The notes under the pieces are model-generated. The model did not search any database, had not been told where the DNA came from, and worked only from the letters and a program-made list of their open reading frames with translations. From a virus (Duplodnaviria; Heunggongvirae; Uroviricota; Caudoviricetes), in IMG/VR virus record IMGVR_UViG_2711768003_000001: a stretch of DNA of 7,633 bases; one strand, written 5' to 3'. The position numbers and the translations under genes were made by a program. Positions 1,833 to 3,933 of the stretch are shown piece after piece (the first letter of the stretch is position 1; every line of letters starts with the position of its first letter).

Positions 1833-2615
1833 TTATGCTGCCCTTTTCATTGCGAATGGAACGCGAACAAACACGATCTCTTTATAGCAGCGGCAGTTTG
1901 GCAGCTCGCCCGCGTGGCCGGTCATGCCGTCCAAAGTTGGAGGTGAATCCCAGCGGACGAATTTACCTTTCATGTGATCGTGGGAATCTCGGACATCGCC
2001 ATCATCGGCTGTACGCCAAATATAACCATCCGAGCCAATAGCTATCGCTCGGGCCATATCCAGCGCGCCCGTTGCTCTTCCCAGTTCCGTTCGGGCAATC
2101 AGATCGGCCCTAGACTTAGCAACATCGCCGGTAGATGCAATCTCTTTAGCAAACTGCTCCGCCCGACCACCGGTGACAACAGCCTCTATCGCTTTGTTCT
2201 GGATGTCGTACACCCTGTCTGCGGCCTCGAGAGGCAGAGATTTGATGTACTTGACCTGTTCGGCGATGATGGATTGCATCACCTGGCCCACAGGAGCGCT
2301 TTCCACAAGATTGCGGAGCTCGCGACTGATGTTCTTGCTGTGTTGCCGCCAAACTTTCTCGTTCTGCCGGGTTAGGTCCGCAGTAAAGTTTTCCGCGACC
2401 TTTGTCGCCCAGGGGGTGATGATTTCACTGTAACGCTCCAGCGCCGCAATAATTTCCGTGATACTGTCATTTGAACCATCGTAGCGACCATTTACGATGT
2501 CTCCGACCGCCCTCGCTATCCTGCGTAGGCTGGTTCGATACCGGATTTCCGCCTGACGGCTCCTGCGGTTCGTCATCAGGTTCGCCGATGCCGGGCGGCG
2601 CTTCATCTTCGGCAT
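1833..2615 (-). CDS. Phage head morphogenesis protein, Mu F / SPP1 gp7 family (minor head protein), 260 aa
   Basis: ATG at 2615..2613 preceded by GAGGA about 8 nt upstream; TAA at 1835..1833. The C-terminal region carries the family-typical ARTE...GY.W......D..VR.SH...G......P..HAG.PNCRC motif. Overlaps the 3' end of the portal ORF by about 149 bp. Confidence 0.85.
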   Translation of the reverse strand: MPKMKRRPASANLMTNRRSRQAEIRYRTSLRRIARAVGDIVNGRYDGSNDSITEIIAALERYSEIITPWATKVAENFTADLTRQNEKVWRQHSKNISRELRNLVESAPVGQVMQSIIAEQVKYIKSLPLEAADRVYDIQNKAIEAVVTGGRAEQFAKEIASTGDVAKSRADLIARTELGRATGALDMARAIAIGSDGYIWRTADDGDVRDSHDHMKGKFVRWDSPPTLDGMTGHAGELPNCRCYKEIVFVRVPFAMKRAA

Positions 2616-3933
2616 TCTCGATGTCCTCGTCGGTAATGGATGCCCCGATGCCGGTTACGTCAGAATTTTCTCGCAAATCAGTCATAGCGGCTTTCAGTGT
2701 CATCAGACCATCACCCAGCGCCGTACTGATTGCGTTGGTGGTGTTTAACGCCACCGTTGAGCGATCGACATCAGACATTTGCCAGAGCGGGTTAAACTCA
2801 AACGTGAAATCGTCCGGCAGCGGCTTGCCAAGTTCCGAACGATGCATGATGTCCAGTATCCGCCGCACCGGAAGACGTAAACGCCTCTCCTGCAACGAAC
2901 TGATGCGATCGTAATAGTTGGCAAGGTCTGCATCACCGGTAGAAAATCCTTTCGGGGACTGTCCGAACAACCGCACCAGTGGGATACCAACAGCGCCACT
3001 AATCTGTTCTACAAACTGCGAAAGGATGTCATCCAGACCACTGAAGCTGTACTGATGGGTTTCAAACTTATCCCGCGAGTCCATGAGCGTCATGCCTTCA
3101 TTACTCTGGAACTGTCGAATCAGGTCGATATTCTTCAGCAACGCTTCATACGCAGGACCACCAAGTGCGATAAGCTCGCGTAGCTTCTCCACGCTGTAGG
3201 TACGCAAATGCGCCTTGTAGACCAGCTGCGCCGCGCCGACAGTAGCGCTGTCGAACGCGGTAAGACGATCCCAGATACGCTCTACAACCGACATTCCCCA
3301 TTCGTTCTCGGTCATCTTCTGCTGAAATGGCAACGTGACGCCATCAAAGCGAATCAGGCGACTGTGATGAATGCGCCAGGCAGGAATTCCCGTTGCTGTG
3401 GTCACCACATCGTAAAACTCAGGTTTACCCAGGTCCGGCCCCATATCTTTAATGCGGCGGGTCAGTGCCGGGTCGACCATCCAGCGGTCGAGCGGGAGAA
3501 TCCCCTTAAACTTGCCCTTACCGATGGTTTCGGGTCGCAGCGGGGTCATTGGTGCCTACCCCTCAATCATGATGAAACCCACCGCGCCGCCGTAGAGGCG
3601 CGACCATTTCAGCACGTCATTCAGCGCATCCCAGATTTGCAACTCATCCAGTTGTGATTCGAGAATGCCACGATCTTTTGCATCAATTTCCGAAGTGATG
3701 CGAATGCCTTTGCGGGTCATATCATCCGGGATAGCATCGACTGCTTCGCCGATGATCTAGGATGAACGATAGGACCATTCCACCAGCATGCGGTTACGAC
3801 TGGTGAAATTAGCCCGGTAGGTGGATGCTGAGTGCTGGTTAGGTGTCTGCATCCCTACGCGGGCAATAAAATTCTCATAACCATCAGCTGTGGCCTGCAC
3901 AGTTCGCCGCAGGGCTTGTTTGTTTCGTGCCAT
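2467..3933 (-). pseudogene. Phage portal protein gene interrupted by two in-frame TAG codons (codons 59 and 126 of 488); the longest intact ORF is 2467..3549 (360 aa)
   Basis: An ATG at 3933..3931 overlaps the terminase TGA (TGATG on the minus strand). My hand translation gives MARNKQALRRTVQATADGYENFIARVGMQTPNQHSASTYRANFTSRNRMLVEWSYRSS, then TAG at 3759..3757, then IIGEAVDAIPDDMTRKGIRITSEIDAKDRGILESQLDELQIWDALNDVLKWSRLYGGAVGFIMIEG, then TAG at 3558..3556, then AP and the listed 360-aa ORF from the ATG at 3549. One frame throughout and protein-like across both stops. Portal identity is from position after the large terminase, size and the RLYGGA-type motif. Confidence 0.8.

What the first reader, a model, noticed from the sequence alone, without database searches (positions are those of the whole stretch)
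2467..3933. Portal gene carries two in-frame amber (TAG) codons; the first sits in a Dcm-deamination signature (CTAGG)
The portal frame is continuous and protein-like from the ATG at 3933 to the TGA at 2469, but is broken by TAG at codons 59 and 126. Each can be explained by a single transition from a sense codon. The first lies in plus-strand CTAGG (3757-3761), the product expected when 5-methylcytosine in a Dcm site CCAGG deaminates; the ancestral codon would then be TGG (Trp). The second (plus CTA at 3556-3558) could derive from CCA (Trp) or CTG (Gln). Other genes in the head module are intact and TAG is a genuine stop for terS, so this looks like targeted inactivation of the portal by point mutation: decay of a cryptic prophage, or an amber-mutant phage maintained in a suppressor host.
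Basis: partly seen in the sequence, partly recalled or inferred. Interest (0 to 1): 0.6.

Follow-up and report, generated by a model that had tools for sequence, protein, structure and literature searches.

The report
Dead portal gene in Shigella prophage
The two in-frame stop codons are real, fixed point mutations that killed the portal gene of an already broken prophage remnant in Shigella sonnei, one of them at a known methylated-cytosine mutation hotspot, so this is ordinary gene decay.

Summary
The minus-strand frame from ATG 3933 to TGA 2467 is a 488-codon DUF1073/PF06381 portal gene, broken by TAG at codons 59 and 126. The window is Shigella sonnei chromosome. The same broken gene is in 10 independent S. 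sonnei chromosomes and on at least 1000 contigs, so it is not a sequencing error.

Relatives with outgroups give the ancestral codons. Codon 59 was TGG (Trp), with plus-strand CCAGG changed to CTAGG at the Dcm-methylated C. Codon 126 was CAG (Gln), not Trp, and is not in a Dcm site. Across finished genomes of this prophage family, 5 of 17 G:C>A:T changes hit Dcm-methylated cytosines. That is 28-fold more than expected (P about 8e-7), so the Dcm reading is well supported.

"Targeted inactivation" is not supported:
- The substitution density in the portal equals that of the surrounding prophage.
- IS1 replaces the major capsid gene from codon 2 onward and all tail genes.
- IS2 cuts the holin gene.
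- The same prophage decays by different lesions in S. flexneri, S. dysenteriae and an E. coli strain.

No evidence favours a suppressor host. Verdict: an ordinary pseudogene in an IS-eroded cryptic prophage, a known kind of event and of low interest.

The parts
2467..3933 (-). Portal pseudogene (DUF1073 / PF06381, Pam3/E217-type portal): 488 codons with two internal TAG codons.
   Evidence: Translation. The intact 488-aa homologue scores 355 bits on PF06381. It matches the solved Pam3 portal 8hds at E=2e-37. It is 99.8% identical in DNA to the intact gene WP_000113499.1 in E. coli FDAARGOS_943/944.
3757..3759 (-). Amber codon 59, derived from TGG (Trp). Trp59 is conserved in three solved portals.
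   Evidence: Window 3758 is T, against C in E. coli 943 and 944, outgroups PEC148 and A34, and all S. flexneri loci. The Trp aligns with Trp in Pam3, E217 gp19 and 9b41.
3757..3761 (+). CTAGG, a former Dcm site CCAGG. The change is at the internal (methylated) C, position 3758.
   Evidence: The same class of site is 28-fold enriched among G:C>A:T changes in this prophage family.
3556..3558 (-). Amber codon 126, derived from CAG (Gln). It is not in a Dcm context.
   Evidence: Window 3558 is A, against G in all relatives and outgroups. S. dysenteriae Sd197 still reads CAG here.
3011..3011 (-). Third S. sonnei-specific change in the portal: GCA->GTA, Ala308Val.
2467..3549 (-). Residual 360-aa ORF (portal residues 129-488). 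Databases annotate it as 'putative bacteriophage protein' (Q3Z426_SHISS). Its ATG sits 2 codons after the second TAG, with GAGGGG 9 nt upstream.
   Evidence: sequence.
3933..5336 (-). Large terminase gene (467 aa), open in S. sonnei. Its TGA overlaps the portal ATG by one base (TGATG).
   Evidence: PF04466 at E=4e-38. Start and stop codons. Sequence.
5287..6051 (-). 254-aa gene with an N-terminal HTH-like region, in the small-terminase position. It ends in TAG.
   Evidence: only weak HTH hits. Same gene order in E. coli 944.
1833..2576 (-). Mu F-like head morphogenesis gene (247 aa), open. It overlaps the portal 3' end by 110 nt.
   Evidence: PF04233.
609..1829 (-). DUF2213 gene (406 aa), open.
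   Evidence: PF09979.
99..605 (-). Head cement protein gene (Gp24-like, 168 aa), open.
   Evidence: PF23982 and PF22758.
1..83 (.). End of IS1. It abuts the ATG of the major capsid gene (window 85-87), so the capsid gene from codon 2 onward and all downstream head-completion and tail genes are absent.
   Evidence: All E. coli matches stop at window 84. InsA/IS1 genes follow the cement gene in S. sonnei loci, then chromosomal pgl/ybhD. In E. coli 944 the capsid gene (DUF2184) and about 12 kb of tail genes follow instead.
7548..7633 (.). End of IS2, inserted in the holin gene.
   Evidence: 100% match to the IS2 end in L001. Window 7547 corresponds to L013 19750, inside holin 19728-19943. The IS genes split the holin in S. 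sonnei loci.

Best explanation
The window is a cryptic prophage remnant in the Shigella sonnei chromosome. It retains the lysis and head module of a SEN34-like myovirus with lambdoid early genes.

Its portal gene is a pseudogene. Three G:C>A:T transitions became fixed in the S. sonnei lineage: Trp59 TGG->TAG, Gln126 CAG->TAG and Ala308Val.

The first most likely arose by spontaneous deamination of the 5-methylcytosine that Dcm places on the internal C of CCAGG, giving a T:G mismatch that escaped very-short-patch repair. The other two are ordinary transitions outside Dcm sites.

The mutations accumulated under relaxed selection in an element that IS1-associated deletion and IS2 insertion have also disabled. 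Nothing targets the portal, and the stops are not read through.

Shown here: the ancestral states, fixation in S. sonnei, the loss of the other modules, and the family-wide Dcm-site enrichment. Inferred: the chemical mechanism, neutrality, and the order of events.
For: 1. **Source and fixation.** Window 1-7102 differs by 1 nt from 10 S. sonnei chromosomes. The product of the residual ORF is on at least 1000 contigs.
2. **Polarity.** E. coli FDAARGOS_943 and 944 (99.85% identical), outgroups PEC148 (96.7%) and A34 (94.6%), and nine S. flexneri-type loci all read C at 3758, G at 3558 and G at 3011. E. coli 944 carries the whole roughly 40-kb prophage with an intact 488-aa portal.
3. **Dcm.** The ancestral site is CCAGG and the change is at the internal C. 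Among 32 polarised substitutions in finished genomes of this prophage family, 17 are G:C>A:T. Five of these hit Dcm-methylated positions, against 1.06% expected: 28-fold, binomial P=7.6e-7. CCWGG is a published hotspot for G:C>A:T at the methylated base (PMC13250602, PMC3527292). Dcm methylation and the dcm gene are reported for S. flexneri (PMC12215381).
4. **No targeting.** Pairwise density is 3/1467 bp in the portal and 22/10.9 kb overall. The family shows 18 missense, 12 synonymous and 4 nonsense changes.
5. **General decay.** IS1 replaces the capsid and tail genes, and IS2 cuts the holin.
6. **Different lesions in each lineage.**
   - S. flexneri: IS2 plus a 7-bp deletion in terL, a 17-bp deletion in the cement gene, portal intact.
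   - S. dysenteriae Sd197: IS1 cuts the portal near codon 103, cement Gln82 CAG->TAG at a Dcm site, and a 7-bp deletion in DUF2213.
   - E. coli 943: IS2 in terL, and MuF Trp209 TGG->TGA.
   - Sources.
7. **Stops are stops.** TAG ends the neighbouring 254-aa and Rz genes. No suppressor tRNA lies within 21-31 kb.
Against: - Two of the three S. sonnei-specific changes are nonsense. Only 6.2% of G:C>A:T changes in this gene would be, giving a nominal P of about 0.01, or about 0.03 if Dcm sites are weighted 28-fold. All three changes lie in the portal, while the other 4.5 kb of window 84-6053 has none that can be assigned with confidence. This mild excess is post hoc, because the finding was chosen for its stops, but selection is not formally excluded.
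- Active Dcm in S. sonnei itself was not tested here.
- One deamination event cannot be proven from sequence.
- Five rare Logan contigs carry 'intermediate' allele combinations. I read them as chimeras of mixed S. sonnei and S. flexneri runs, but did not verify this at read level.
Confidence: 0.92

Rival explanations
1. The portal was inactivated by selection. Nonsense alleles were favoured because the portal protein was costly or harmful to the host, for example as a trigger of a portal-sensing defence system, or as part of a still-inducible prophage.
For: Two of the three S. sonnei-specific substitutions are nonsense, and all three lie in the portal. Across lineages, 4 of 34 codon changes (32 substitution events, two counted in both overlapping genes) are nonsense, somewhat above the roughly 3.5-5% expected.
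Against: - Substitution density in the portal equals the surrounding prophage.
- Other lineages keep the portal intact and break terL, the cement gene, MuF or DUF2213 instead, so the portal is not a preferred target.
- One nonsense change sits on a site class with a 28-fold higher rate.
- Loss of the portal would not stop lysis on induction.
- The finding was selected because it contains stops, so the excess is an ascertainment effect.
Confidence: 0.04
2. The amber codons are decoded, by a suppressor tRNA or by readthrough, and the phage was maintained as an amber mutant in a suppressor host.
For: Both stops are TAG, the codon most often suppressed in laboratory E. coli. The frame stays open for 360 codons after the second TAG.
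Against: - Relatives 99.8% identical carry TGG and CAG.
- TAG terminates the adjacent 254-aa and Rz genes.
- No tRNA with a CUA anticodon lies in the 21-kb S. sonnei or 31-kb E. coli context.
- The element lacks capsid and tail genes, so no phage exists to be maintained.
- The open downstream frame is expected, since only about 0.2% divergence has accumulated.
Confidence: 0.01
3. The stops are sequencing or assembly artefacts, for example miscalls at Dcm motifs in nanopore data.
For: Nanopore basecallers are known to make errors at CCAGG/CCTGG motifs (PMC6591954). The window itself contains a run of N at 7103-7351.
Against: The identical broken gene is present in 10 S. sonnei chromosomes from separate projects, including 53G. 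It is a UniProt entry attributed to strain Ss046 (SHISS) and is seen on at least 1000 contigs. The second TAG is not in a Dcm motif.
Confidence: 0.01
4. W59* and Q126* arose repeatedly, or spread by recombination, among Shigella lineages. This reading takes the rare contigs with single-mutant combinations at face value.
For: Logan contigs L019 (V308 + Q126*), L021 (Q126*), L022 (V308 only) and L023 (W59* only) exist. Three of them carry the S. flexneri-type 7-bp terL deletion.
Against: - Apart from one unique base each in L021 and L022, every allele in these contigs is either the S. sonnei or the S. flexneri allele, and they switch up to five times within 3.5 kb. That is the pattern expected when an assembler merges two strains in one run.
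- There are 5 such contigs (4 of them informative), all from Logan, against thousands of clean ones.
- Finished S. flexneri genomes all have the intact portal.
Confidence: 0.02

Closest known systems
Pseudogenes in IS-eroded cryptic prophages of Shigella (reductive genome evolution)
   Same: The element is a prophage remnant flanked and interrupted by IS1 and IS2. Essential modules are deleted, and point-mutation pseudogenes are fixed in a clonal pathogen lineage. The same element decays independently in S. flexneri, S. dysenteriae and an E. coli strain carrying IS2 in terL.
   Different: Nothing material differs. The only particular detail is that two nonsense mutations fall in one gene while its in-window neighbours remain open.
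Dcm (CCWGG) 5-methylcytosine deamination hotspots, the classic source of amber mutations at CCAGG in E. coli lacI (own knowledge: Coulondre et al. 1978); CCWGG hotspot status cited in PMC13250602 and PMC3527292
   Same: The change is C->T at the internal C of CCAGG and creates TAG. The S. dysenteriae cement-gene change CAG->TAG in CCAGG is exactly the lacI type, while the S. sonnei portal change is the opposite-strand version (TGG->TAG). Enrichment is 28-fold in this prophage family.
   Different: This is observed in natural lineages rather than in a reporter gene. Only one of the two portal stops is of this type.
Pam3/E217-type portal proteins (Pfam PF06381; PDB 8hds, 8fvh, 9b41)
   Same: The ancestral 488-aa protein aligns over residues 15-413 with the Pam3 portal, and Trp59 is conserved. 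The gene order terL-portal-MuF-DUF2213-cement-capsid matches.
   Different: The copy in this window is truncated by two stops. The longest remaining ORF lacks the first 128 residues.
Amber-mutant phages propagated on supE/supF hosts (laboratory genetics)
   Same: In-frame TAG codons lie in an essential structural gene.
   Different: This is a natural chromosome, not a phage stock. No suppressor was found nearby, TAG is used as a stop by neighbouring genes, and the element lacks capsid and tail genes.

Membership tests
Phage portal protein, PF06381 (DUF1073; Pam3/E217 type) | Profile match above the curated threshold. | tested here: met
   The intact homologue scores 355.4 bits against a cut-off of 33.8, over residues 55-402. 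The 54-aa and 360-aa fragments carry PF06381 hits in the precomputed tables.
Phage portal protein, PF06381 (DUF1073; Pam3/E217 type) | Sequence homology to experimentally solved portal dodecamers. | tested here: met
   8hds Pam3 portal at E=2.2e-37; 8fvh E217 gp19 at E=1e-14.
Phage portal protein, PF06381 (DUF1073; Pam3/E217 type) | Position directly downstream of the large terminase gene in a head module. | tested here: met
   The terL stop overlaps the portal ATG, and MuF, DUF2213 and cement genes follow.
Phage portal protein, PF06381 (DUF1073; Pam3/E217 type) | Uninterrupted reading frame, meaning a functional member. | tested here: not met
   TAG at codons 59 and 126. It is a pseudogene of this family.
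Dcm 5-methylcytosine deamination mutation | The ancestral sequence is CCWGG. | tested here: met
   CCAGG in E. coli 943 and 944, PEC148, A34 and the S. flexneri loci at window 3757-3761.
Dcm 5-methylcytosine deamination mutation | The change is C->T at the internal cytosine (or G->A on the other strand). | tested here: met
   Position 3758 C->T is the second C of CCAGG. For the second TAG (3558) the context is not CCWGG, so that change does not qualify.
Dcm 5-methylcytosine deamination mutation | Such positions mutate more often than other G:C pairs in the same lineages. | tested here: met
   5 of 17 G:C>A:T events against 1.06% of G+C positions: 28-fold, P=7.6e-7.
Dcm 5-methylcytosine deamination mutation | The host has an active Dcm methyltransferase. 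| not tested
   The S. sonnei dcm gene and methylation could not be examined with the sequence held. Dcm methylation and the dcm gene are reported for S. flexneri 2457T (PMC12215381), and Dcm is described as common in Enterobacteriaceae (PMC6591954).
Cryptic (defective) prophage | Phage gene modules in a bacterial chromosome with essential functions missing or broken. | tested here: met
   The capsid gene from codon 2 and all tail genes are replaced by IS1 followed by chromosomal pgl/ybhD. The holin is split by IS2 and the portal by stops.
Cryptic (defective) prophage | No particle production on induction. | not testable with these tools
   This needs an induction experiment.
Amber suppression / stop-codon recoding | A tRNA with a CUA anticodon is available. 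| tested here: inconclusive
   None in the 21-kb S. sonnei or 31-kb E. coli 944 context. Only Met(cat), Gly, Thr and Arg tRNAs were found. The whole genome was not available.
Amber suppression / stop-codon recoding | The in-frame TAG is conserved among relatives, and TAG is avoided as a true terminator. | tested here: not met
   Relatives have TGG and CAG. TAG terminates the 254-aa and Rz genes.

The most novel reading that the evidence does not exclude
The excess of nonsense changes is not chance. Either S. sonnei was selected to silence this portal, for example because a host defence senses portal protein or because expression is costly, or the 360-aa N-terminally truncated fragment is still made and has been put to a new use. 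That fragment has its own Shine-Dalgarno-like GAGGGG and an ATG two codons after the second TAG.
Probability: 0.03. Interest if true: 0.5.

Novelty: already known. Interest (0 to 1): 0.12.

Why it matters
The practical value is small. This locus should be annotated as a single portal pseudogene, not as three 'bacteriophage proteins' of 58, 54 and 360 aa. The prophage should not be counted as potentially active.

It is a tidy natural example of Dcm-site deamination creating amber codons. In this prophage family, about 29% of G:C>A:T substitutions fall on about 1% of the G:C positions. It also shows one prophage being disabled by different lesions in each Shigella lineage.

None of this changes current understanding.

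Tried and rejected
1. **S. dysenteriae 360-aa homologue.** I asked whether the 360-aa protein in S. dysenteriae Sd197 (99% identical) shares the amber at codon 126. It does not. IS1 cuts the gene near codon 103 and codon 126 is still CAG.
2. **Evolutionary intermediates.** I looked for them by exact look-up of hypothetical products. Five Logan contigs turned up. Their site patterns fit no single tree. Comparison with finished S. flexneri genomes shows they are mosaics of S. sonnei-specific and S. flexneri-specific alleles. I rejected them as true intermediates and read them as mixed-sample chimeras, so the order of the two nonsense mutations remains unknown.
3. **Portal-specific substitution excess.** Rejected, since density is 0.20% both in the portal and overall.
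4. **DedA-family gene as chromosomal flank.** I first took it for flanking chromosome. It is inside the prophage, between the lysis and terminase genes, in all relatives.
5. **Differing MuF gene calls.** The 152-aa and 247-aa calls among S. sonnei loci are gene-caller choices, not mutations, because the DNA is identical.
6. **Papers not held.** Gomez-Eichelmann 1991 (PMC212538) and Cherry 2018 (PMC6256030) are not in the library.
7. I reached it through the cluster look-up instead.
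Full report
**Observation.** Reading window 3933->2467 on the minus strand gives a 488-codon frame ending in TGA, with internal stops only at codons 59 and 126, both TAG. This frame has 3 stops in 489 codons, while the other two frames of that strand have 21 and 35. The first TAG lies in plus-strand CTAGG at 3757-3761 and the second is plus-strand CTA at 3556-3558.

**What the gene is.** The intact homologue from E. coli FDAARGOS_944 (488 aa, WP_000113499.1) matches Pfam PF06381 Phage_portal_3 with 355 bits over residues 55-402. 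It aligns over residues 15-413 with the solved Pam3 portal 8hds (E=2e-37), and with E217 gp19 and related portals. Both stop codons therefore lie within the conserved portal domain. The neighbouring genes are terL (PF04466), a 254-aa HTH-containing gene in the small-terminase position, a Mu F-like head morphogenesis gene, DUF2213, a cement protein, and a VTT/DedA-family gene on the other strand.

**Where the window comes from.** Window 1-7102 differs at a single base (7023) from ten Shigella sonnei chromosomes, including 53G (HE616528). The product of the residual 360-aa ORF is UniProt Q3Z426_SHISS. It occurs on at least 1000 contigs and in 2576 index blocks. The stops are therefore real and fixed in S. 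sonnei. They are not read errors and not nanopore Dcm-motif miscalls (compare PMC6591954).

**Ancestral states.** The closest E. coli copies are FDAARGOS_943 and 944 and VL40, 99.8% identical over the portal gene. The 943 and 944 copies, read base by base, carry an intact portal and differ from the window in the gene at only three positions. Polarising with PEC148 (96.7%) and A34 (94.6%) shows that all three are derived in S. sonnei:
- 3758 C->T: TGG Trp59 -> TAG, plus-strand CCAGG -> CTAGG.
- 3558 G->A: CAG Gln126 -> TAG.
- 3011 G->A: Ala308Val.

Nine S. flexneri-type loci agree with the ancestral states. For codon 126 the answer is Gln, and the site is not a Dcm site. Trp59 is conserved in Pam3, E217 gp19 and 9b41. 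Gln126 is conserved only in Pam3.

**The Dcm reading.** Position 3758 is the internal, methylated C of CCAGG. One event proves little, so I polarised all substitutions in window 84-4673 across finished genomes of this prophage family. These were S. sonnei, E. coli 943 and 944, S. dysenteriae Sd197, seven S. flexneri-type genomes and two other loci.
- There are 32 events, of which 17 are G:C>A:T.
- Five of those 17 fall on Dcm-methylated positions, which make up 1.06% of G+C positions.
- That is a 28-fold excess, binomial P=7.6e-7.
- Two of the four nonsense mutations in the family are such events: the S. sonnei portal W59*, and the S. dysenteriae cement-gene Gln82 CAG->TAG in CCAGG.

CCWGG is a published hotspot for G:C>A:T at the methylated base (PMC13250602, PMC3527292). 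Dcm methylation and the dcm gene are reported for S. flexneri (PMC12215381). I did not test dcm in S. sonnei itself.

**Is the portal targeted?** The evidence says no.
- S. sonnei 53G and E. coli 944 differ at 22 positions in 10.9 kb of shared prophage (0.20%). The portal has 3 in 1467 bp (0.20%).
- In the portal, 6.2% of possible G:C>A:T changes give a stop. Two of three being nonsense has a nominal P of about 0.01, or about 0.03 once Dcm sites are weighted. The finding was picked because it has stops, so this is not evidence for selection.
- Family-wide there are 18 missense, 12 synonymous and 4 nonsense changes, a pattern of relaxed constraint.

**State of the whole element.** The claim that the head module is otherwise intact holds only inside the window.
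- Window 1-83 is an IS1 end that abuts the ATG of the major capsid gene.
- In S. sonnei, IS1 is followed by chromosomal pgl/ybhD. In E. coli 944 the capsid gene and about 12 kb of neck, tail and baseplate genes follow instead.
- Window 7548-7633 is an IS2 end inside the holin gene.

The element cannot form particles regardless of the portal.

**Parallel decay elsewhere.** The same prophage (more than 99% identical) is broken differently in each lineage:
- S. flexneri: IS2 and a 7-bp deletion in terL, a 17-bp deletion in the cement gene, portal intact.
- S. dysenteriae Sd197: IS1 cuts the portal near codon 103 (codon 126 is still CAG), with a cement amber and a 7-bp deletion in DUF2213.
- E. 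coli 943: IS2 in terL and MuF Trp209 -> TGA.

No gene is a preferred target.

**Suppression.** TAG terminates the adjacent 254-aa and Rz genes. No tRNA with a CUA anticodon lies in the 21-kb S. sonnei or 31-kb E. coli context. Relatives carry sense codons at both positions. The suppressor-host idea has no support, although the whole S. sonnei genome was not available to scan.

**An apparent complication.** Exact look-ups found five rare Logan contigs, four of them informative, with 'intermediate' combinations: W59* only, Q126* only, V308 only, and V308 + Q126*. Their site patterns fit no tree. Apart from one unique base each in L021 and L022, every allele is either S. sonnei-specific or S. flexneri-specific. 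They alternate up to five times within 3.5 kb, and three contigs end at the S. flexneri IS2 junction. The simplest reading is chimeric contigs assembled from runs containing both species. This was not verified at read level, so the order of the two nonsense mutations is unresolved.

**Verdict.** This is a real feature, correctly described, and ordinary. It is a portal pseudogene in an IS-eroded cryptic prophage of S. sonnei. One of its two amber codons is a well-supported Dcm-hotspot event. The kind of event is already known, and the interest is low.

Noticed in passing
window 7103-7351 and 7352-7633: There is a run of 249 N inside the lysozyme/Rz region. The corresponding stretch in S. sonnei 53G is 535 bp. 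The 282 bp after the gap differ at 8 positions (97.2%) from all ten S. sonnei chromosomes, although the 7.1 kb before it is nearly identical. This could be a scaffold gap joined to a paralogous lambdoid lysis-gene copy, or a masked stretch.
   Followed up: partly
window 84-4673 and loci L015, L024-L033, L001: The same prophage (more than 99% identical) sits in S. sonnei, S. flexneri, S. dysenteriae 1 and E. coli strains FDAARGOS_943/944. Its intact portal protein is named 'E. coli O28ac' by one source. Each lineage disabled it by different lesions: IS1, IS2, 7-bp and 17-bp deletions, and nonsense codons. terL carries independent IS2 insertions at about window 4673 (S. flexneri) and about 4883-4888 (E. 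coli 943).
   Followed up: yes
window 108-4656 (Dcm sites at 108, 359, 482, 3757, 4653): Across the family, 5 of 17 G:C>A:T substitutions hit the methylated C of CCWGG (28-fold excess). Position 4656 (CCAGG versus CCAAG) has an allele distribution that conflicts with neighbouring sites, which suggests recurrence or recombination at that Dcm site.
   Followed up: partly
L019, L021, L022, L023 (Logan contigs from SRR17313989, ERR6005742, SRR1185284, SRR1184664): These contigs mix S. sonnei-specific and S. flexneri-specific alleles in alternating blocks. They probably come from runs containing both species, merged by the assembler. This is a caution for anyone using such contigs as evidence of intermediates.
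   Followed up: partly
window 6246-6758 (+): A 170-aa VTT/DedA-family membrane protein gene lies on the opposite strand between the lysis cassette and the terminase genes. It is conserved in all copies of this prophage and is a likely moron gene of unknown role.
   Followed up: no
window 3549-3570 and 2467-2576: GAGGGG lies 9 nt upstream of ATG 3549, two codons after the second TAG, so the 360-aa fragment could be translated. The portal 3' end overlaps the annotated Mu F-like gene start by 110 nt in another frame, in all relatives.
   Followed up: no
whole window: CTAG occurs 6 times against about 28 expected from base composition, which is the usual enterobacterial CTAG depletion. One of the six, at 3757, is the newly created one.
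   Followed up: no
L013 20623-20933 versus L006: The intact E. coli 944 prophage carries four tRNA genes (Gly, Thr, Arg, Met/Ile-type CAT) between the Q-like gene and the holin. In S. sonnei this region is broken up by IS elements and only the CAT-anticodon tRNA remains nearby.
   Followed up: no
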